The position numbers and the translations under genes were made by a program. A DNA stretch of 64,000 nucleotides, taken from NCBI GenBank assembly GCA_964554645.1, contig CAZKPK010000001.1:3697-67696 (forward strand), given 5' to 3'. The first letter of the stretch is position 1. Each line of letters starts with the position of its first letter. Under the pieces are notes generated by a model, which worked only from the letters and a program-made list of their open reading frames with translations, did no database searches and was not told where the DNA came from. Shown in pieces: positions 8,946 to 59,601 of this stretch. The stretch comes from an uncultured Candidatus Saccharibacteria bacterium. GTDB taxonomy: Bacteria > Patescibacteriota > Minisyncoccia > Phycocordibacterales > UBA9973.

Positions 8946-9026
8946 ACTATATTTCAACATGAGGAAGCGATATAAACAGAAAAGTAATAATCTAGATTAA
9001 AATAACTATATGCGCAATAGGCAACC

Positions 9027-9112
9027 ATCCACCCCGTCTCGACTAAAGTCGAGTCACCCCTCAAGAGGGGAACGTCCACCCCGACGCAAGCGTCACCCCT
9101 CAAGAGGGGAAT
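9027..9112 (+). repeat. family A repeat, tandem pair
   Basis: Two units: ATCCACCCCG-TCTCGACTAAAGTCGAGT-CACCCCTCAAGAGGGGAA and TCCACCCCG-ACGCAAGCGT-CACCCCTCAAGAGGGGAAT. Confidence 0.9.
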
Positions 9113-9162
9113 GGAATCCAAAATCTCTATATCCATATTGGGAAATTCCTAAAAACAAAATT

Positions 9163-9522
9163 TTGACTGATAGGGCAAAAGATTTAAGAAAGGCGGGTAA
9201 TTTATCTGAAGTTATTTTTTGGCAAACTTTTAAAGATAAAAATAAATTAGGTTTTGATATTGATAGACAAGTTATAATCGGCAATTATATTGTAGATTTT
9301 TTTATTCCCGAACTAGGTTTAGTTTTTGAGATAGACGGTTCAAGTCATGACGATAAGCTTGAATATGATGCTGAACGAGATGCTTTTATGAGAGATTTAA
9401 ATTTAAAAGTGGTTAGAATTCTTGATATTGATGTGAAGAAGAATCTAGGAAGTGTCTATCAATTTGTATTAGAAACAATACATAAAAGAAAAAAGGATGC
9501 ATTTGAATTATTCCCCTCTTGA
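9163..9522 (+). CDS. DUF559 (Vsr-like/PD-(D/E)XK) endonuclease-domain protein
   Basis: LRKAGNLSEVIFWQ..GFDIDRQVIIGNYIVDFFIPELGLVFEIDGSSH matches the DUF559 core. TTG 9163 is my start guess; ORF upstream to 9010 is repeat-encoded. The TGA stop lies inside the right-hand repeat. Confidence 0.75.
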   Translation: MTDRAKDLRKAGNLSEVIFWQTFKDKNKLGFDIDRQVIIGNYIVDFFIPELGLVFEIDGSSHDDKLEYDAERDAFMRDLNLKVVRILDIDVKKNLGSVYQFVLETIHKRKKDAFELFPS

Positions 9523-9596
9523 GGGGTACTCCGACTTCAGTCGGAGTGGGGTGGATGTATGAGGGGTGACCCGATGACCATCGGGTCGGGGTGGAT
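9510..9596 (-). repeat. family A repeat, tandem pair in inverted orientation
   Basis: ATTCCCCTCTTGAGGGGTA-CTCCGACTTCAGTCGGAG-TGGGGTGGAT + GTATGAGGGGTG-ACCCGATGACCATCGGGT-CGGGGTGGAT; reverse complement of family A consensus. Confidence 0.9.
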
Positions 9597-9665
9597 AGCT
9601 GTAGAACCAGAGTTATGCACATTATATTTCACTTAAGTTTGTTTTTGTAATATAATTAAGATACG

Positions 9666-14689: not shown

Positions 14690-14732
14690 CCACAGGTCAG
14701 ACCTGTGGGATTCCCATAGGTCTGACCTATGG
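14690..14732. repeat. family B palindromes, tandem pair (REP-like)
   Basis: CCACAGGTCAGACCTGTGG (14690-14708) and CCCATAGGTCTGACCTATGG (14713-14732) between pilT stop and pilC start. Confidence 0.9.
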
Positions 14733-15957: not shown

Positions 15958-16059
15958 GATTCTCCTCTTGAGGAGTACTCCGACTCAGGTCGGAGGGAGG
16001 TGGATGAGTTTTTCCACCCCGTCCTTTGATTACAAAGTCCACCCCTCAAGAGGGGAATC
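15958..16059. repeat. family A inverted doublet (REPIN-like)
   Basis: Reverse unit GATTCTCCTCTTGAGGAG..GGGAGGTGGAT (15958-16005) faces forward unit TCCACCCC..CCCCTCAAGAGGGGAATC (16013-16059); 18-nt terminal inverted repeats, 2 mismatches. Confidence 0.9.
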
Positions 16060-16134
16060 GCTACCCCTGTGGATAACTTTCTTGCATGTTTTTTTGCCTC
16101 TATATGATATAATTACTCCATTAGAAAAATATTT

Positions 16135-20593: not shown

Positions 20594-23222
<2,629 letters not shown>

Positions 23223-29438: not shown

Positions 29439-31367
29439 ATGAAAATTTCTTATAATTGGCTCAAATGGTATATACCGGAAGCGCCTCCCGCAAACAAACT
29501 TGCGGATATTTTTAATTACCATATTTGCGAAGTGGAGAGTGTCCAACACCGAGTGTTGGACAAAGATAAAGATTGGATTTTTGATTTAAAAGTTTTGCCG
29601 AACCGCGCGCATGATTTACTTTCACATCAGGGAGTCGCTCGCGAGCTTGCTTCACTTTTAGATATCAAATATGTAGATCCCACGCCGAAATATAAAATTC
29701 CCGCCTCCGCCAAGGCTGCCCCCTTCGCTGAAGTGGCTACGAAGGCCAAGTCGGCGGGCAAGCCGGAATTAAAAATTGATGTTCAAACGCCTTTATGCAG
29801 GCGATATATGGGCAGAATTATAAGGGGAATAAAAATCGGTCCCAGTCCGGAGTGGATGGTGAAGCATTTAGAATCAATAGGACAGAGAAGTATAAATAAT
29901 ATTGTAGATGCCGCCAATATTGTAATGTTTGATTGCGGACAGCCGACTCATGCTTTTGATCTGGATAAAATGAATAGCAAGATAATAGTGCGCGAGGCAG
30001 AAAATGACGAAGACATAACCACTTTAGATAATCAGGGAATAAAATTAAAAAGTTCAAATATGGTGATTGTAGATTCTAAAAATATTTTAGCGATTGCCGG
30101 AATAAAAGGCGGGAAGATTGCGGAAGTGGACAATAATACAAAAAATATAATTCTTGAGGTTGCTAATTTTGATCCGGTTTCGGTGCGGAAAACAGCTCAA
30201 GCCTTTAATCTATTTACCGACGCGCGAAAGAGGTTTGAAAATGACCTGTCGCCAGAATTGGCACCATATGCCATGCGCGAACTCTCGGCTCTCATTTTTG
30301 AAATGTGTCCGGACGCTATTTTTGAAGATGTTGTGGATGTTTACCCCCACACCAATGATATTGGTGTGGGGGTTTATCCTGAAAAACAAAAGGAGAAAAA
30401 ACTTTCTTTTTCGGCTGAAAGAATTTCAAAAATTTTAGGACTCAAAGTTTCAGTTAAAGAAATAGAAAATATTTTGCAGAGATATAATTTTAGGTATAAA
30501 GAAAATAAAGGGAAATTTGAGGTTGTTGTGCCACCGATGCGTCTTGATTTAGCAATAGAAGAAGATATGGCGGAAGAGATAGGTAGAATTCTGGGATATG
30601 ATAAAGTAAAACCACAAATTCCCCACATGTCTGACATGTGGGAACCACAGGTTAATGAGATTTATGCAAAAATTTCCTGGGTCAGAAATAAATTATTGGC
30701 TGATGGATATTCCGAAGTGATGACTTATACTTTTCGAGAAAAGGGAGAAATAGAAGTGCAAAATAGCGCTTCCGATAAAAAGTTTTTGCGAACGAATTTA
30801 ACTGATGGATTGAAAGAAAGCGTTAAATTAAATCACGCCAATGCCCCGCTGTTAGGAATTGACGAAATTAAAGTTTTTGAAATTGGAACTGTTTTCAAAA
30901 AAGATAAAGAGCAGATAAATATTTGTTTTAGTGACAAAAAAAATATCACAGAAGTTTCTTTAAATGATTTTTGTAAAGATATGCTTTCTAGTGATTCTCC
31001 TCTTGAGGAGTACCCTTTAGGGGGAGGTGGAAAATTTATCCACCCCGTCGCAAGCGCCACCCCTCAAGAGGGGAATAGATTCAAGATGTGGTCTTTGTTT
31101 CCTTTCATTGCGCGCGATATCGCTGTCTTTGTGCCGGAAAAAATTAAGAGTTTGGAAATAGAAAAAATAATAAAAAAGAATATGGGAAATATGGTGATTC
31201 GAGGTCCGGAACTTTTTGATGAATTCAAAAAAGGCAATCAGATTTCTTATGCCTTCAGATTGGTTTTTCAATCTTACGATCGGACACTGACAGACGCAGA
31301 AGTGAATGAAATTATGGATAAAATAACTGACAAAATTAAGAAGAATAAAGGTTGGCAAGTAAGGTAA
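29439..31367 (+). CDS. pheT: phenylalanine--tRNA ligase beta subunit (reduced architecture, several repeat-derived inserts)
   Basis: 642 aa; MKISYNWLKWYI, LPNRAHDLLSHQGVAREL, B3_4 IVDAANIVMFDCGQPTHAFDLDK, C-terminal FPFIARDIAVFV. Confidence 0.93.
   Translation: MKISYNWLKWYIPEAPPANKLADIFNYHICEVESVQHRVLDKDKDWIFDLKVLPNRAHDLLSHQGVARELASLLDIKYVDPTPKYKIPASAKAAPFAEVATKAKSAGKPELKIDVQTPLCRRYMGRIIRGIKIGPSPEWMVKHLESIGQRSINNIVDAANIVMFDCGQPTHAFDLDKMNSKIIVREAENDEDITTLDNQGIKLKSSNMVIVDSKNILAIAGIKGGKIAEVDNNTKNIILEVANFDPVSVRKTAQAFNLFTDARKRFENDLSPELAPYAMRELSALIFEMCPDAIFEDVVDVYPHTNDIGVGVYPEKQKEKKLSFSAERISKILGLKVSVKEIENILQRYNFRYKENKGKFEVVVPPMRLDLAIEEDMAEEIGRILGYDKVKPQIPHMSDMWEPQVNEIYAKISWVRNKLLADGYSEVMTYTFREKGEIEVQNSASDKKFLRTNLTDGLKESVKLNHANAPLLGIDEIKVFEIGTVFKKDKEQINICFSDKKNITEVSLNDFCKDMLSSDSPLEEYPLGGGGKFIHPVASATPQEGNRFKMWSLFPFIARDIAVFVPEKIKSLEIEKIIKKNMGNMVIRGPELFDEFKKGNQISYAFRLVFQSYDRTLTDAEVNEIMDKITDKIKKNKGWQVR
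29700..29758. repeat. GC-rich imperfect long hairpin inside pheT
   Basis: CCCGCC..CCTTCG / CGAAGG..GGCGGG arms; translated PASAKAAPFAEVATKAKSAG; strong local GC excess. Confidence 0.55.
30343..30373. repeat. 31-nt perfect palindrome inside pheT
   Basis: ACCCCCACACCAAT-GAT-ATTGGTGTGGGGGT; flanked by GTTTAC/GTTTAT; translated YPHTNDIGVGV. Confidence 0.85.
30622..30642. repeat. family B variant palindrome inside pheT
   Basis: CCCACATGTCTGACATGTGGG (21 nt), translated PHMSDMW (compare HRSDLW from canonical copies). Confidence 0.8.
30993..31076. repeat. family A inverted doublet inserted in frame in pheT
   Basis: GATTCTCCTCTTGAGGAG..GGGAGGTGGA + ATCCACCCCGTCGCAAGCGCCACCCCTCAAGAGGGGAAT; 84 nt = 28 codons (DSPLEEYPLGGGGKFIHPVASATPQEGN). 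Confidence 0.9.
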
Positions 31368-33507: not shown

Positions 33508-34095
33508 ATGAAAAAATTAATCTTAGCTTCAAGTTCAAGCACAAGGAAAAATTTGCTTACAGAAGCCGGCTTGAATTTTGAAATTGATCCAAGTAGTTAC
33601 GAAGAAGATATAACATTATTAATGTCTCCAAAAGAATTAGTGGCTCATTTATCTTACGGTAAAGCAAAAGATGTAGCATCGAGGCACCAAGAAGCCATAG
33701 TTCTAGGAGCTGATACAATTATTGTCTATCAAGATAAAATTCTCGGTAAACCTCATACATCGGAAAGAGCTAAAGAAATGTTAAAAATGTTAAGTGGTAG
33801 GGCACACTTAGTTGTTACTGGTTTTACAATAATTGATACGAAAAATAATCATAGCATCTCCAAAGTTGTAGAAACAGAAGTGTTTTTCAAAAATCTCACA
33901 GATAGAGAAATAGATAATTATGTAGCTACCGGTGAACCACTGAATAAAGCAGGGGCTTATGCAATTTTAGAGAATGGTGGCAAATTTGTTAAAAAGATCG
34001 AAGGAAGTAGAACAAATGTGTCAGGTTTACCCATGGAGGAGTTAATGAATGTTCTAAAAAATTCCCATAGGTCAGACCTATGGGATGTGTTATAA
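33508..34095 (+). CDS. maf: Maf-like nucleoside triphosphate pyrophosphatase
   Basis: 195 aa from ATG 33508; KLILASSSSTRKNLL, GADTIIVYQDKILGKP, AGAYAI; last residues (HRSDLWDVL) encoded by a family B palindrome. Confidence 0.88.
   Translation: MKKLILASSSSTRKNLLTEAGLNFEIDPSSYEEDITLLMSPKELVAHLSYGKAKDVASRHQEAIVLGADTIIVYQDKILGKPHTSERAKEMLKMLSGRAHLVVTGFTIIDTKNNHSISKVVETEVFFKNLTDREIDNYVATGEPLNKAGAYAILENGGKFVKKIEGSRTNVSGLPMEELMNVLKNSHRSDLWDVL
34064..34084. repeat. family B palindrome (left flank of RAYT gene)
   Basis: CCCATAGGTCAGACCTATGGG. Confidence 0.9.
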
Positions 34096-34102
34096 TAGCA
34101 GT

Positions 34103-34780
34103 ATGAGTCTCAGAGATTCGAATTTAGTGGAAAAAGAGTATTATCATATTTACAATCGCGGTAATGGAAAAAATAAAATTTTTAATTCCATAGAAGATTA
34201 CGATCGTTTTTGTAAACTTCTTTTTATTTGTAATTCTGAAAGAAGTTTTACATTCAGAGATTCAGTCGTAGATCAAAAAATTGATGCCTGGGATTTTGAA
34301 AGGGGAGAACCGCTTGTGGAAATATGTGCATGGGTTTTAATGCCTAATCATTTCCATATAATTTTAATTTCCCATAGGTCGGACCTATGGGATGAGAAGT
34401 ATAATCCAATAACGGAATTTATGAGAAAACTTTCTACGGCTTACGCTATGTATTTTAATAAGAAATATAACCGCACTGGATCTCTTTTTGAAGGAAAGTT
34501 TAAGTCTAAACATATTAGCAAAGATAATTATTTCCATTATTTATTTTCTTACATTCATCTTAATCCAATTAAATTAATCCAACCAGATTGGAAAGAAAAT
34601 GGTATCAAGAATAAAAAAGAAGCGATTGCTTATCTTATGAATTTTAAATATTCAAGTTTTCAAGATTTTTATGGTGTCTCTAGAAAAGAAGGAAAGATAA
34701 TAAATAAGAATTCGTTACCAGAAGATTTTAAATACAATCATGTTGAGGAACTTTTTGAATGGATAACTGATTCCCCATAG
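34103..34780 (+). CDS. IS200-like Y1 HUH transposase, REP-associated (RAYT-like)
   Basis: YHIYNRGN, HUH motif LMPNHFHIIL, catalytic Tyr motif YIHLNP; flanked by palindromes at 34064 and 34773. Confidence 0.85.
   Translation: MSLRDSNLVEKEYYHIYNRGNGKNKIFNSIEDYDRFCKLLFICNSERSFTFRDSVVDQKIDAWDFERGEPLVEICAWVLMPNHFHIILISHRSDLWDEKYNPITEFMRKLSTAYAMYFNKKYNRTGSLFEGKFKSKHISKDNYFHYLFSYIHLNPIKLIQPDWKENGIKNKKEAIAYLMNFKYSSFQDFYGVSRKEGKIINKNSLPEDFKYNHVEELFEWITDSP
34371..34391. repeat. family B palindrome inserted inside the RAYT ORF
   Basis: CCCATAGGTCGGACCTATGGG, 21 nt = 7 codons (SHRSDLW), 2 residues after the HUH motif. Confidence 0.9.
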
Positions 34781-34795
34781 GTCAGACCTATGGGG
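34773..34795. repeat. family B palindrome (right flank; provides RAYT stop codon)
   Basis: CCCCATAGGTCAGACCTATGGGG; the TAG at 34778-34780 is the stop. Confidence 0.9.
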
Positions 34796-34834
34796 AATCA
34801 CTTCTTGAAATTCTCAAAAAAGAAAGGAAATAAA

Positions 34835-50119: not shown

Positions 50120-53100
50120 ATGAAAACTTTAAACACAACTGAATTTAATTCGATCGCCCTACGGCTTGCGTCTCCGGAACAAATCAAGGAGTGGTCATTC
50201 GGGGAAGTGACGAAGCCCGAGACGATAAATTATCGCACTGGCCGATCCGAACGTGGAGGTCTCTTTGATGAAAAAATATTTGGACCGGAAAAAGATTACG
50301 AATGTTATTGCGGAAAATACCGCCGGATTCGTTATAAAGACATCATTTGCGAGAAATGCGGAGTGGAAGTTACCCGTTCGATAGTGCGCCGAGAGCGAAT
50401 GGGACACATCGAGCTTGGAACTCCCGTCTCGCATATTTGGTTTCTGCGCGGGGTGCCTTCTCGGATGAGCATTCTGCTTAATATATCCGTGACGGATCTG
50501 GAAAAGGTAATATATTTTGCCGGATATATAATTACTAAAGTTCACGAGGATGAGAAAGAAGCTGTTATTGCCAATTTAGATAAGGAATACAAATCTAAAT
50601 TAAAAAATGCGACCGATGATGATACTCGAGAAAAATTGAAAAATCTGCTTTCTATTACCAAGAAAGAAATTGGGGAAATTTATGAAGGGAAAGTTCTGAA
50701 TGAAATTTCTTTTCATCACTATTCTTTGAAATACGGAACTTGTTTTGAGGCCAATATAGGCGCTGAAGCTATTTATTCCATTTTTAAAAATTTAGATTTA
50801 GATAAATTAAAGACCCATACCGAAAAGATGATCGAAAAAGCCAGCGTGGCTGAAAAAGAGAAATTACAGAAAAGGCTTTCTCTTATTCGCGCTATGACCT
50901 ATGCCGGAATTCGTCCGGAATGGATGTTTTTGACCGTTTTTCCAGTTATTCCTCCTGTCTTGCGCCCGATGGTCGCTTTAGATGGAGGTCGGCACGCGAC
51001 TTCCGACTTGAATGATCTTTATCGTCGAGTTATTAATCGAAACAATCGCTTGAAGAAGTTGAAAGAAATCAATGCGCCGGATGTAATTTTGCGAAATGAA
51101 AAAAGAATTATTCAAGAAGCGGTTGATGCGCTGATCGATAATTCAATTGCCAAACAGAATGATTCTGCCGCCATGAGTCAGTCTCAAAAGCGTCCCCTAA
51201 AATCGCTGTCAGACAATTTAAAATCAAAACAAGGTCTTTTCCGCCAAAATTTGCTTGGAAAAAGAGTAGATTATTCAGGACGTTCAGTGATTGTCGTTGG
51301 TCCCGAGCTTAAGCTTAATCAATGCGGATTGCCAAAACACATGGCGCTGGAACTTTTTAGGCCATTTGTAATTTCCAAAATCTTGCAAGCGGAATTGGCG
51401 TTTAATATTCGCGGGGCAAACAAGCTGATAGAAGAACGAGGGGGGGAAGTCTGGGCAATGCTGGAAGAGGTTATTGCCGGAAAATACGTTCTCTTGAACC
51501 GCGCGCCGACCCTCCATCGTTTAGGTATCCAAGCTTTTAATCCGATTTTAATCGAGGGAAATGCTATTCAAGTTCACCCTCTTGTCTGCCAAGCTTTCAA
51601 CGCTGACTTTGATGGAGACCAAATGGCAGTCTATGTTCCTTTGCTTGAAGAAGCGCAATGGGAGGCAAAAGAGTTCATGGCTTCGAACAAGAATTTACTA
51701 AAACCCCAAAATGGCGATCCGATCGTGCATCCGCGCATGGATATGGTGCTTGGAAGTTTTTGGATGACGAAATCAATAGAAGGAGAAGTGGGTGAAGGCA
51801 AGTATTTTTCTAGGCCCAACACCGCCGTCACGGCCTATGATTATGGGATTATTTCTATGCGGGCCAAAATAAAAGTTCTTCCAATGGATAAACCCAAGTA
51901 TAAGAAATTTAATGGAGAAATTTTTGAAACGACCGTCGGCAGAATCATATTCAATAGTATTTTGCCGGATGATTTTCACTATGTAAATGATGAAATGACT
52001 CAAGATAGGTTGTCTTCTCTCTTGGATGAATTGATTATGCACTCGGGAGTTGAAAATATTCCCCATATTTTGGATACAATTAAAGCTTTTGGTTTTAAAT
52101 ATTCTACTATCTCCGGCACCACTTGGGGGTTGGATAATGTTTCTGTGTCTTCCGAGAAACCGAAAATTATAGCCGAAGGCAAGAAACTTGAAAAAGAAAT
52201 AATCTCCCAGTGGCAGGAAGGTCTTTTATCTGAGGAAGAAAAATATCAAAAAGTTATTGAAGTTTGGACGCATATGAAGAAAAATTTGGAAAAAGTTTTA
52301 CCCAAGACGGTTGACAAACACAGTTCCACTTACGATATATTTACTTCTAAAGCCAGAGGCACGATGAGTTCTTTGATGCAGATGACTGGAATGATCGGGC
52401 TGATTCAAAATAACCAAGGCAAAACCCTGGAATTTCCGATTATCCCTTGCTATCAAGAAGGGCTTTCCCCAATTGAATATTTCGTTATTACTCATGGCGC
52501 TCGCAAAGGCGCTTCCGATACCGCGTTAAATACCGCCAAAGCTGGATATCTAACTCGCAGATTGGTTGATGTGGCGCAGGATGTGGTTATCACTGAAGTA
52601 GATTGCGGAACCAAAGAGGGCAGGATAGTTACCAAAGAAAATATTTCTGGAATTGAAATTCCGCTTTCAAAAAATATCCGCGGGCGGGTATTGGCGGGAG
52701 ATCTTAAAAACAAAAATGGCAAGGTAGTTTATAAAAAAGGGTTTTTAGTCACGAAAGAGGAGGCCTACAATATTGAAGGAGCAGGTTTTACGGAAGTATT
52801 TGTCCGTTCTCCTTTAACCTGCCGCACTGTTCATGGTCTGTGTGTCATGTGTTATGGACTTGACTTAGGACGAAATCGTTTAGTGGAGCTTGGCGAAGCG
52901 GTCGGCATTATCGCGGCTCAGGCCATCGGAGAACCGGGAACTCAGCTTACGCTTCGCACCTTTCACGCTGGGGGCGTTGCCGGCACTGATATTACCACCG
53001 GTCTTCCGCGTGTCGAAGAAATATTTGAAAGGAGAATTCCTAAAAATCCGGCCATTATTTCTGAAACCGATGGTGAAGTGATCGAAATAAAAATAAAAGA

Positions 53101-53791
53101 TCCCGCCTCTGGCGGGACAGGTGTAAAATCTGCTCACTCCCGCGATATTTCAGGATCCGGCGGGGAAAAAATAATCAAAGTGCTTTCAGATCTGGAAGAT
53201 AGTAAGGCGGGGGCTAAAAACGAAATAGAATATCTTGTTCCGTTTCACAGAATGCCTACCGTTAAAGCAGGTGATCACATAAAGAAAGGGGATCTCCTAA
53301 CTGACGGGTCAGCGGATATTGCTGAAATGTTTAAATTTGGCAACAAGGAATTAGTCGAAAATTATATAATTCGGGAAATAAACAAAGTTTATGAATTGCA
53401 AAGCGCTTCAATTTCCAGAAAGCATACGGAAATAATTATCCGCCAAATGTTTTCGCGCCGAAAAATAAAAGACGCGGGCGACACTAATTTTTCCATCGGC
53501 GATATTGTTGAGAATACCGCATTTATAGAAGAAAATCAGAGAGTTGCGCGCTTGGCGGTTAAACCGCCAAGCGCGCTTGGCGGTTTAACCGCCAAAGCAG
53601 AAACAGTGGTGCTTGGTATCACGGAAGTGTCGCTTCGCACTAAAAGTTGGCTCTCGGCGGCTTCGTTCCAAAACACCAATCGCGTTCTTATTGAAAACGC
53701 GGTCAAGGGCGGGGTAGATTCTTTGAGAGGGTTAAAAGAGAATGTTATAATCGGTAGGTTAATTCCGGCTGGAACTGGATTTAAAAAATAA
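50120..53791 (+). CDS. rpoC: DNA-directed RNA polymerase subunit beta'
   Basis: 1223 aa; Zn CYCGKY..CEKCGV, NADFDGDQMAV, GEAVGIIAAQAIGEPGTQLTLRTFH. Confidence 0.98.
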   Translation: MKTLNTTEFNSIALRLASPEQIKEWSFGEVTKPETINYRTGRSERGGLFDEKIFGPEKDYECYCGKYRRIRYKDIICEKCGVEVTRSIVRRERMGHIELGTPVSHIWFLRGVPSRMSILLNISVTDLEKVIYFAGYIITKVHEDEKEAVIANLDKEYKSKLKNATDDDTREKLKNLLSITKKEIGEIYEGKVLNEISFHHYSLKYGTCFEANIGAEAIYSIFKNLDLDKLKTHTEKMIEKASVAEKEKLQKRLSLIRAMTYAGIRPEWMFLTVFPVIPPVLRPMVALDGGRHATSDLNDLYRRVINRNNRLKKLKEINAPDVILRNEKRIIQEAVDALIDNSIAKQNDSAAMSQSQKRPLKSLSDNLKSKQGLFRQNLLGKRVDYSGRSVIVVGPELKLNQCGLPKHMALELFRPFVISKILQAELAFNIRGANKLIEERGGEVWAMLEEVIAGKYVLLNRAPTLHRLGIQAFNPILIEGNAIQVHPLVCQAFNADFDGDQMAVYVPLLEEAQWEAKEFMASNKNLLKPQNGDPIVHPRMDMVLGSFWMTKSIEGEVGEGKYFSRPNTAVTAYDYGIISMRAKIKVLPMDKPKYKKFNGEIFETTVGRIIFNSILPDDFHYVNDEMTQDRLSSLLDELIMHSGVENIPHILDTIKAFGFKYSTISGTTWGLDNVSVSSEKPKIIAEGKKLEKEIISQWQEGLLSEEEKYQKVIEVWTHMKKNLEKVLPKTVDKHSSTYDIFTSKARGTMSSLMQMTGMIGLIQNNQGKTLEFPIIPCYQEGLSPIEYFVITHGARKGASDTALNTAKAGYLTRRLVDVAQDVVITEVDCGTKEGRIVTKENISGIEIPLSKNIRGRVLAGDLKNKNGKVVYKKGFLVTKEEAYNIEGAGFTEVFVRSPLTCRTVHGLCVMCYGLDLGRNRLVELGEAVGIIAAQAIGEPGTQLTLRTFHAGGVAGTDITTGLPRVEEIFERRIPKNPAIISETDGEVIEIKIKDPASGGTGVKSAHSRDISGSGGEKIIKVLSDLEDSKAGAKNEIEYLVPFHRMPTVKAGDHIKKGDLLTDGSADIAEMFKFGNKELVENYIIREINKVYELQSASISRKHTEIIIRQMFSRRKIKDAGDTNFSIGDIVENTAFIEENQRVARLAVKPPSALGGLTAKAETVVLGITEVSLRTKSWLSAASFQNTNRVLIENAVKGGVDSLRGLKENVIIGRLIPAGTGFKK
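53102..53116. repeat. GC hairpin within a GC-rich segment of rpoC
   Basis: CCCGCC-TCT-GGCGGG; surrounding 53095-53170 encodes DPASGGTGVKSAHSRDISGSGGE. Confidence 0.55.
53546..53597. repeat. family C palindrome doublet inside rpoC
   Basis: GCGCGCTTGGCGGTT-A-AACCGCCAAGCGCGC (31-nt perfect palindrome) + CTTGGCGGTTTAACCGCCAAAG; translated LAVKPPSALGGLTAK. Confidence 0.92.
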
Positions 53792-59551: not shown

Positions 59552-59596
59552 ATTCCCCTCTTGAGGGGTGGCTCGGTAATCCGAGACGGGGTGGAT
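59552..59596 (-). repeat. family A repeat unit directly after dsbA-like stop
   Basis: ATTCCCCTCTTGAGGGGTGG-CTCGGTAATCCGAG-ACGGGGTGGAT. Confidence 0.9.
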
Positions 59597-59601
59597 GTAT
59601 T

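What the first reader, a model, noticed from the sequence alone, without database searches (positions are those of the whole stretch)
30343..30373. A 31-nt perfect palindrome in pheT with a possible 6-bp target-site duplication
ACCCCCACACCAAT-GAT-ATTGGTGTGGGGGT is read as YPHTNDIGVGV. It is bracketed by GTTTAC and GTTTAT, so the protein reads VYP...VYP. That is consistent with an insertion that duplicated its target. pheT also carries three other inserts: 29700 (GC-rich imperfect hairpin), 30622 (family B variant) and 30993 (family A doublet).
Basis: seen in the sequence. Interest (0 to 1): 0.5.

Follow-up and report, generated by a model that had tools for sequence, protein, structure and literature searches.

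The report
Tiny mobile palindrome inserted in pheT
A 29-base palindromic piece of selfish DNA has jumped into the essential gene pheT of an uncultivated Nomurabacteria bacterium, duplicating four bases (TTTA) and adding 11 amino acids in frame. It belongs to a family found in many other uncultivated bacteria that I could not find described in the papers I searched.

Summary
Arms 30343-30356 and 30360-30373 are 100% complementary with a 3-nt loop, and the sequence is unique in the window.

The insertion reading is supported, with one correction. The element is 29 bp (30344-30372, CCCCCACACCAATGATATTGGTGTGGGGG). It is flanked by a 4-bp duplication TTTA (30340-30343 and 30373-30376), not 6 bp. 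Element plus one TTTA is 33 nt, or 11 codons (YPHTNDIGVGV).

- **Empty sites.** All 21 aligned PheT orthologues lack these residues. Three orthologous genes read GTG GAT GTT TAT CCN, which is the window minus the element and one TTTA.
- **A dispersed family.** Most are CPR/Patescibacteria. A metagenome scan gave 56 more.
- **Target duplication.** Across 161 non-redundant copies, flanks are direct repeats: 63 perfect 4-bp duplications, 40 of them TTTA/TAAA.
- **Where copies sit.** Some are intergenic and some lie in frame inside housekeeping genes (murC, alaS, mfd, holA, recJ, folD, polX).
- **Longer relatives.** Elements of 100-340 bp share the same ends and duplication.
- **Mobilising enzyme.** No transposase lies near any copy, so the enzyme is unknown.

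It works like a MITE or a Rickettsia palindromic element but is far smaller. I rate it a new variant of a known kind.

The parts
30340..30343 (+). Left copy of the 4-bp target-site duplication, TTTA
   Evidence: Direct reading. The empty sites in L121, L122 and L123 read GAT GTT TAT CCN, with a single TTTA. TTTA/TAAA is the commonest duplication in the family (40 of 63 perfect ones).
30344..30372 (.). The 29-bp palindromic element CCCCCACACCAAT-GAT-ATTGGTGTGGGGG: two 13-bp terminal inverted repeats around a 3-nt centre. It is stop-free in the reading frame used.
   Evidence: The same ends, (C)CCCCACACCA...TGGTGTGGGG(G), occur in at least 160 copies elsewhere. The identical 27-nt core including the loop is found in murC, in an rsmI-like gene and in another gene of other organisms.
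30373..30376 (+). Right copy of the 4-bp target-site duplication, TTTA. It is followed by T, which fits the family's TTTA|Y preference.
   Evidence: 36 of the 40 TTTA/TAAA sites carry the corresponding purine/pyrimidine next to the duplication.
30342..30374 (+). The 33 nt (11 codons) that are extra relative to orthologues: residues Y302-V312, YPHTNDIGVGV, of PheT. An equivalent register is 30340-30372.
   Evidence: Alignment A1: all 21 orthologues have a gap here, and Y313 and P314 are invariant. Alignment to the solved PheRS beta chain 2RHS_B places the site in the linker just before the B5 domain.
29439..31367 (+). Host gene pheT (phenylalanine--tRNA ligase beta subunit, 642 aa). It stays open through the element.
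   Evidence: Pfam B3_4, B5, FDX-ACB.

Best explanation
**What is shown.** The palindrome is one copy of a dispersed family of ultra-short, non-coding mobile elements. A 29-bp unit made of two abutting terminal inverted repeats ((C)CCCCACACCAA...) was inserted into the target TTTA inside pheT, and those four bases were duplicated. Element plus duplication is 33 nt, with no stop codon in the frame used. The gene therefore stays intact and gains 11 residues in the linker between the B3/4 and B5 domains.

**What is inferred.** The element is a minimal MITE: terminal repeats and nothing else. It would be moved in trans by a cut-and-paste transposase that makes 4-bp staggered cuts and prefers TTTA|Y. 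That enzyme is encoded elsewhere, or is no longer present. The insert itself is probably a tolerated, selfish passenger rather than an adaptation.

I put the 'mobile-element insertion with target duplication' part at about 0.85. I put the 'DDE-type transposase acting in trans' part at about 0.45.
For: - **Insertion and exact empty site.** 21 of 21 orthologous proteins lack the 11 residues. 3 of 3 orthologous DNAs read GTG GAT GTT TAT CCN.
- **Family.** 56 more in metagenomes. 161 non-redundant copies in all.
- **Flanks are duplications, not part of the palindrome.** Within-copy direct matches are 206/304 against a shuffle mean of 131.4, sd 7.4, max 154. Inverted matches are not enriched. The signal peaks sharply at length 4: 35 perfect against 6.0 expected, max 13. 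63 of 161 are perfect when the terminal base is allowed to vary, including rarer duplicated tetramers such as TGAA, TTAA, CAGG and CAAG.
- **Longer elements with the same ends and the same duplication.** L022 104 bp TTTA, L094 131 bp TTTA, L152 137 bp TCTA, L095 339 bp TAAA. A short copy flanked by TGAA/TGAA is nested inside a roughly 150-bp element in L099.
- **Identical core at unrelated sites.** The identical 27-nt core including the loop occurs in murC, an rsmI-like gene and another gene.
- **In-frame copies in many housekeeping genes.** Mur ligase, AlaRS, Mfd-like, HolA, RecJ, FolD, PolX, YceG.
- **No coding capacity and no recurrent neighbouring gene**.
Against: - No autonomous element, and no transposase gene next to any copy, was found in 1.32 Mb of flanking DNA.
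- At 29 bp the element is below the 50-800 bp range given for prokaryotic MITEs (PMC11602168).
- Only 39% of copies have a perfect duplication.
- The flank pair TAAA/TGAA recurs at six independent sites, which simple decay of a duplication does not predict.
- Only one copy lies in the 64-kb window, and the rest of this genome could not be searched.
- Many hits come from metagenome-assembled genomes, so part of the cross-phylum spread could reflect binning errors.
Confidence: 0.75

Rival explanations
1. Single-strand hairpin transposition of the REP/RAYT or IS200/IS605 (HUH tyrosine transposase) type. The enzyme would recognise the folded hairpin and insert the element 3' of a preferred tetranucleotide (TTTA). 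The apparent duplication would be the element's own 3' tetranucleotide, read by the same recognition rule.
For: - The element is essentially one hairpin of REP-like size. Its stem is conserved while the centre varies in sequence and length from 1 to 11 nt.
- There is a strong preference for one tetranucleotide, TTTA, in 40 of 63 cases.
- For a single copy, insertion 3' of TTTA of an element ending in TTTA cannot be told apart from a duplication.
- From established knowledge, IS608 inserts 3' of TTAC.
Against: - The flanking tetramer varies and co-varies on both sides (TGAA/TGAA, TCTA/TCTA, CAAG/CAAG). HUH elements do not duplicate their targets.
- The longer relatives have terminal inverted repeats rather than two like-oriented subterminal hairpins.
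- No Y1 transposase or RAYT-like gene recurs near the copies.
- There is no conserved GTAG-like 5' tetranucleotide.
Confidence: 0.12
2. Insertion without a dedicated transposase. A hairpin-forming oligonucleotide or short duplex would be captured at a 4-nt staggered break made by a host enzyme (for example a type IIA topoisomerase, which cuts with a 4-base stagger), followed by fill-in and ligation.
For: - No transposase was found near about 160 copies.
- CPR genomes are small.
- The 4-bp duplication length equals the type IIA topoisomerase stagger (established knowledge).
- The stem is identical across phyla.
Against: - This does not explain why one specific stem sequence is the one inserted everywhere.
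- It does not explain the 100-340-bp elements that share only the terminal 9-14 bp.
- No precedent was tested here.
Confidence: 0.08
3. A host-selected functional hairpin inside pheT (a regulatory RNA structure, a protein-binding site or a terminator/attenuator) rather than selfish DNA.
For: - The hairpin is very stable (-30.8 kcal/mol as RNA).
- The insertion at one murC site is retained across at least 6 related contigs.
Against: - It is absent from all 21 orthologues.
- It is not terminator-like.
- No Rfam family matches; the best hit is E = 0.15, below the gathering score.
- Copies are scattered in unrelated genes and in intergenic DNA with target duplications.
Confidence: 0.03
4. A one-off local palindrome created by a replication template switch or slippage in pheT, with a chance VYP repeat.
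For: There is only one copy in the 64-kb window.
Against: - Both arms are new relative to the orthologues.
- The identical sequence occurs in other genes of other organisms, and more than 160 family members share the stem and the duplication pattern.
Confidence: 0.02

Closest known systems
[quoted passage not shown]
   Same: Terminal inverted repeats of 10-15 bp, short target-site duplication, no coding capacity, dispersed multi-copy family, longer and shorter relatives sharing the same ends, and nested insertions.
   Different: It is 29 bp, against the 50-800 bp given for prokaryotic MITEs. It has no internal sequence at all. No parent insertion sequence is known. A large share of copies sit inside genes, whereas about 90% of MITEs are intergenic (PMC11602168).
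Rickettsia palindromic elements (RPEs)
   Same: Palindromic selfish DNA inserted in frame into unrelated housekeeping genes of a reduced-genome bacterium, adding a peptide segment without inactivating the gene (PMC10969869).
   Different: RPEs are about 150 bp and are reported from Rickettsia. This element is 29 bp, has a clear 4-bp TTTA duplication, and occurs across CPR and several other phyla. Sequence similarity to RPEs was not tested.
REP / BIME sequences and their RAYT transposases
   Same: Size (20-40 nt), a G+C-rich stem-loop in an A+T-richer genome, and high dispersal.
   Different: REPs are extragenic, carry a conserved 5' tetranucleotide (GTAG) and lack target duplications (established knowledge). 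Here the flanking tetramer varies and is duplicated, copies are often intragenic, and no RAYT-like gene recurs nearby.
Mitochondrial G+C-rich hairpin elements (yeast GC clusters such as GC42; double-hairpin and repetitive hairpin elements)
   Same: Roughly 30-40-bp G+C-rich hairpin-forming mobile DNA in an A+T-rich compact genome. The stem is conserved and the loop variable. No transposase is known (PMC4478555).
   Different: Those elements live in organelle genomes and are mostly intergenic, and an RNA-mediated route has been proposed for them. There is no evidence of common descent.

Membership tests
MITE | Terminal inverted repeats of at least 10-15 bp | tested here: met
   Arms of 13-14 bp, 100% complementary. 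The same terminal 9-14 bp are found on longer elements.
MITE | Target-site duplication of 2-10 bp | tested here: met
   TTTA on both sides. The empty site is GTT TAT in three orthologues. The family-wide signal is at 4 bp: 35 perfect against 6 expected, and 63 of 161.
MITE | No transposase gene; multi-copy dispersed family | tested here: met
   29 bp cannot encode a protein. At least 161 non-redundant copies occur in other genomes and metagenomes. Copy number in this genome could not be tested: one copy in 64 kb.
MITE | Size 50-800 bp with an internal sequence between the repeats | tested here: not met
   The element is 29 bp with a 3-nt centre. The size range comes from PMC11602168.
MITE | A cognate autonomous insertion sequence with the same ends | tested here: inconclusive
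   No kb-sized element bounded by these ends with a duplication was found, and no recurrent neighbouring protein family, in 1.32 Mb of loci. Whole genomes were not searched.
REP / RAYT | Conserved 5' tetranucleotide next to the palindrome, no target duplication, extragenic location | tested here: not met
   The flanking tetramers vary and are direct repeats. Many copies are intragenic.
REP / RAYT | A RAYT (Y1 transposase) gene flanked by the repeats | tested here: inconclusive
   No recurrent neighbouring family beyond housekeeping genes was seen. Only about 8-kb blocks around the copies were available.
Rickettsia palindromic elements | Palindromic element of about 100-150 bp | tested here: not met
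   29 bp. The RPE size comes from PMC10969869.
Rickettsia palindromic elements | In-frame insertion into protein-coding genes that stay open | tested here: met
   pheT stays open. The same holds for Mur ligase, AlaRS, Mfd-like, HolA, RecJ, FolD, PolX and YceG genes elsewhere.
IS200/IS605-derived palindromic elements | Insertion 3' of a fixed tetra- or pentanucleotide without duplication; subterminal hairpins instead of terminal inverted repeats | tested here: inconclusive
   There is a strong TTTA preference. However, the flanks co-vary on both sides and the longer relatives have terminal inverted repeats. A single copy cannot discriminate.
Intrinsic terminator | G+C-rich hairpin followed by a T-run | tested here: not met
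   It is not reported by the terminator scan, and the tail is TTTATCC. It lies inside an essential ORF.
CRISPR repeat | Regularly spaced array of repeats with spacers | tested here: not met
   There is a single copy in the window, and copies elsewhere are solitary or abutting, without spacers. A Synechococcus CRISPR repeat only resembles part of the stem.

The most novel reading that the evidence does not exclude
The CCCCCACACC palindromes would be a new class of mobile DNA. They would be the smallest transposable unit known (about 25-33 bp, a bare hairpin). An enzyme not yet linked to transposition, or one supplied by a host or an episymbiotic partner, would move them across many phyla of groundwater bacteria. 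They would be able to colonise essential genes because stem, length and duplication together form a stop-free multiple of three.
Probability: 0.15. Interest if true: 0.85.

Novelty: new variant of a known kind. Interest (0 to 1): 0.6.

Why it matters
CPR/Patescibacteria genomes are tiny and are usually regarded as poor in mobile DNA, and standard MITE finders use a lower size limit of about 50 bp. A 29-bp element with a clean 4-bp duplication therefore matters for several reasons.

- **A blind spot in repeat annotation.** The same stem occurs in dozens of lineages, and copies sit in frame in aminoacyl-tRNA synthetases, Mur ligases and replication and repair genes.
- **A source of protein length variation.** Such inserts contribute to lineage-specific indels in CPR core proteins. 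That matters for alignments, phylogenies and structure prediction of these proteins.
- **A defined substrate for finding the enzyme.** The ends plus the TTTA|Y target give a concrete handle for finding whatever moves it. That search would also test how small a transposon can be.

For annotation, inserts of this kind should be recognised as mobile-element scars rather than as functional motifs.

Tried and rejected
- **Other copies in the window.** None were found, even allowing 2-3 mismatches.
- **Rfam.** Only a sub-threshold rpsB sRNA hit, E = 0.15.
- **Terminator reading.** Rejected.
- **CRISPR reading.** Rejected: solitary copies, and only a partial resemblance to a Synechococcus repeat.
- **Same site in another PheT.** I suspected that the very similar copy in L004, and the 'RELYPHTNDIGVGVYP' copies, were the same site in other PheT genes. 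tblastn and Pfam show they are AlaRS and Mur ligase.
- **Search for a mobilising gene.** Clustering 2,303 ORFs from 119 loci gave only housekeeping families, each present in at most 7 loci. Pairing distant arms gave no kb-sized element with a duplication.
- **Viral contigs.** Five weak hits without duplications.
- **AlphaFold2 model of PheT.** The model was too poor to place the insert (mean pLDDT 59.6, residues 215-317 below 50), so I used a sequence alignment to 2RHS_B instead.
- **Literature.** Searches for the sequence, and for MITEs or palindromes in CPR/Patescibacteria, found no description.
- **An IS1380/piggyBac-like parent.** The idea (C-rich ends, 4-bp TTAA-like target) rests on my memory only and was not tested.
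- **High-G+C actinobacterial hits.** L018, L028, L036, L062, L066, L085, L097 and L101 lack duplications, and I set them aside as unrelated hairpins.
Full report
**1. The observation**

Window 30343-30373 reads ACCCCCACACCAAT-GAT-ATTGGTGTGGGGGT: two 14-nt arms, 100% complementary, with a 3-nt loop. It lies in ORF 29439..31367 (+). That ORF is 100% identical to a 'phenylalanine--tRNA ligase subunit beta [Candidatus Nomurabacteria bacterium]' and sits on contig JACPLP010000008.1 of assembly GCA_016186455.1.

In that frame the palindrome reads YPHTNDIGVGV. It is not a chance feature:
- No shuffle of the window contains it.
- The arm with up to two mismatches occurs nowhere else in the 64 kb.
- The hairpin folds at -17.2 kcal/mol as DNA and -30.8 kcal/mol as RNA, z about -5.

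**2. It is an insertion, and the empty site is known**

I aligned the protein with 21 orthologues of 67-75% identity. All of them read ...VD-VYP... with an 11-residue gap exactly where the window has YPHTNDIGVGV, and Y313 and P314 are invariant.

The DNA of three orthologous genes (L121, L122, L123) reads GTG GAT GTT TAT CCN. The window reads GTG GAT G-TTTA-[CCCCCACACCAATGATATTGGTGTGGGGG]-TTTA-T CCT. Removing the 29-bp palindrome and one TTTA restores the orthologous sequence base for base.

So the unit is a 29-bp element (30344-30372) plus a 4-bp duplication (30340-30343 and 30373-30376). Together these are 33 nt, or 11 codons.

**3. It belongs to a large dispersed family**

My estimate from pattern length and collection size is about six chance matches.

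Roughly 65 of the 119 are CPR/Patescibacteria metagenome-assembled genomes: Saccharibacteria, Parcubacteria, Falkowbacteria, Uhrbacteria, Giovannonibacteria and others. The rest include Omnitrophota, Planctomycetota, Deltaproteobacteria-type genomes and one 'Nitrospira japonica' genome with copies on eight contigs. A few high-G+C actinobacterial hits have no duplication, and I regard them as unrelated hairpins.

A metagenome scan for the window's sub-type (CCAAT-NNN-ATTGG) gave 56 more loci. There is one copy in 64 kb.

**4. The flanks are target-site duplications of 4 bp**

- Within each copy, the four bases on the left match the four on the right as a direct repeat far more often than when right flanks are shuffled among copies: 206 of 304 positions against 131.4 +/- 7.4, maximum 154. 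Inverted matching is not enriched.
- Testing lengths 2-8 gives a sharp peak at 4: 35 perfect against 6.0 expected, maximum 13.
- Pooling all sources gives 161 non-redundant copies. Of these, 63 have a perfect 4-bp duplication when the outermost base pair (C-G, sometimes T-A) is allowed to vary.
- 40 of the 63 are TTTA/TAAA and 10 are TGAA/TTCA. Rarer tetramers (TTAA, CAGG, CAAG, TATA and others) are also duplicated.
- Oriented as TAAA, 36 of the 40 sites are preceded by a purine, so the preferred target is TTTA|Y. The window copy (G-TTTA-T) fits this.

**5. Relatives that look like ordinary MITEs**

The same terminal 9-14 bp and the same kind of duplication bound longer elements:

| Locus | Length | Duplication |
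|---|---|---|
| L022 | 104 bp | TTTA |
| L094 | 131 bp | TTTA |
| L152 | 137 bp | TCTA |
| L095 | 339 bp | TAAA |

In L099 a short copy flanked by TGAA/TGAA is nested inside a roughly 150-bp element with CCCCACACC ends. This is the behaviour of a family of terminal-inverted-repeat transposons, and the window element is its minimal form.

**6. Where the copies sit**

About 54 of 124 copies lie in open frames of at least 150 codons. Pfam confirms host genes:
- Two different sites in Mur ligase (L149, L081)
- AlaRS (L004)
- An Mfd-like helicase (L132)
- HolA (L165)
- An RsmI-like methylase (L174)
- RecJ (L033)
- FolD (L117)
- PolX (L011)
- YceG (L154)

The commonest reading is ...Y-PHT(K/N)x(F/I)GVG-VY..., the same frame as in the window. 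The stem has no stop codon in any frame (direct reading). The modal core length of 27 nt (48 of 124 copies) gives 33 nt with the duplication.

The identical 27-nt core, loop included, occurs in murC (L142, L149, L171; reverse strand in L124, L156, L169), in the RsmI-like gene (L174) and in another gene (L153) of other organisms. The murC insertion is shared by several related contigs with small differences, so such inserts can persist.

**7. What moves it**

This is not resolved. I clustered 2,303 ORFs from the 119 loci. No family is present in more than seven loci, and the recurrent ones are housekeeping genes: IleRS, ABC-F, MurC, RF1, XerC/D-like and others. No kb-sized element with these ends and a duplication was found in 1.32 Mb.

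A cut-and-paste (DDE-type) transposase acting in trans is my leading inference, for three reasons: the terminal inverted repeats on the longer relatives, the co-variation of the flanking tetramers, and the fixed 4-bp length.

A hairpin-recognising HUH enzyme (REP/RAYT or IS200/IS605 style) is the main rival. It suits the tiny hairpin and the TTTA preference, but it does not predict duplicated, variable flanks or terminal inverted repeats.

A route without a transposase, through 4-base staggered breaks, cannot be excluded.

One detail fits none of these cleanly. The flank pair TAAA/TGAA (or its mirror TTCA/TTTA) recurs at six independent sites.

**8. Effect on the host gene**

The ORF stays open. 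Alignment to the solved PheRS beta chain 2RHS_B places the insert in the poorly conserved linker just before the B5 domain.

The AlphaFold2 model built on 22 sequences was too weak to say more: mean pLDDT 59.6, residues 215-317 below 50. The hairpin is not terminator-like and matches no Rfam family. I infer a tolerated surface loop.

**9. Comparison with known systems**

It works like a MITE: terminal inverted repeats, a target duplication, no gene, and a dispersed family. However, it fails the usual size criterion of 50-800 bp (PMC11602168) and has no known parent.

It behaves like Rickettsia palindromic elements in colonising genes in frame (PMC10969869), but it is five times smaller and has a different distribution.

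It resembles REPs and mitochondrial GC clusters in size and shape (PMC4478555). It differs from REPs in its flanks and location, and from both in setting.

Searches of the held literature for the sequence, and for MITEs or palindromic repeats in CPR, found no description. That library is incomplete, so prior description cannot be excluded.

**10. Verdict**

- The insertion-with-duplication reading is supported, and the duplication is corrected to 4 bp.
- It is a new variant of a known kind.
- Interest is moderate to high.

Noticed in passing
window 21779-21914 (ligA ORF 21045..23222); L001 2476/2477: The stored NCBI copy of the same contig (L001) lacks 136 nt that the window has, and differs by one further base. 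The deletion starts inside the palindrome doublet ACTTGGCGGTTAAACCGCCAAGTGGCGGTTTAACCGCCAAGT and splits ligA into two called genes. The window has an intact 725-codon ORF. This could be a population variant, a palindrome-mediated deletion or an assembly error.
   Followed up: partly
window 21353-21375, 21763-21804, 53546-53595: A second perfect-palindrome family, ACTTGGCGGTT(T/A)AACCGCCAAGT, has five copies, two of them as doublets. The 53546-53595 doublet lies inside the 1223-codon ORF 50120..53791 (probably rpoC, not verified). A simple test found no 4-bp duplication.
   Followed up: partly
window 14690-14732, 34063-34085, 34370-34392, 34768-34800: A third palindrome family, (T)CCCATAGGTC(A/G)GACCTATGGG(A), has five copies and no obvious duplication.
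   Followed up: no
window 29540-29562, 29692-29773, 30622-30642, 30994-31076 (all in pheT): pheT carries further palindromic or G+C-rich segments where orthologues differ in length.
- TGTCCAACAC-CGA-GTGTTGGACA at 29540-29562.
- A G+C-rich stretch at 29692-29773 encoding KAAPFAEVATKAKSAGKPE.
- CCCACATGTC-T-GACATGTGGG at 30622-30642, encoding the peptide HMSDMW, which is shared with P0003.
- A 41-nt imperfect inverted repeat at 30994-31076 encoding SPLEEYPLGGGGK...TPQEGN, which is shared with P0002, P0003, P0004 and P0015.
   Followed up: partly
alignment A1 (P0003, P0006-P0010, P0015): Other Nomurabacteria PheT proteins carry their own short G/P-rich inserts at different positions (for example TPLLSEEGVGGG, PLPSFPLNRGEE, LAPSEEGGGW, NLPAQAGG). 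In-frame insertion of short repeats therefore looks general in this clade.
   Followed up: no
window 9011-9119, 9513-9612, 15964-16073, 31033-31079, 59553-59599: Composite G+C-rich repeats are built from CCCCTCTTGAGGGG-type and TCCGACT..AGTCGGA-type hairpins plus GGGGTGG.
   Followed up: no
L024, L027, L032, L035, L043, L045, L057, L083 ('Nitrospira japonica' MAG DR5_44_14): In this genome two CCCCACACC palindromes (flanked by TTCA/TTCA and TTTA/TTTA) sit about 200 nt apart. They lie inside a conserved intergenic repeat that often falls at contig ends, which suggests a high-copy composite element.
   Followed up: partly
L006, L017, L073, L089, L004, L111: The flank pair TAAA (left) / TGAA (right), or its mirror TTCA / TTTA, recurs at six independent insertion sites. 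Random decay of a perfect duplication does not predict this.
   Followed up: no
L099 4369-4520: This is a nested arrangement. A roughly 150-bp element with CCCCACACC ends contains a related palindrome with a variant stem (CCCTCCCACCAAAATTTGGTGGGAGGG). It also contains a canonical short copy flanked by TGAA/TGAA.
   Followed up: partly
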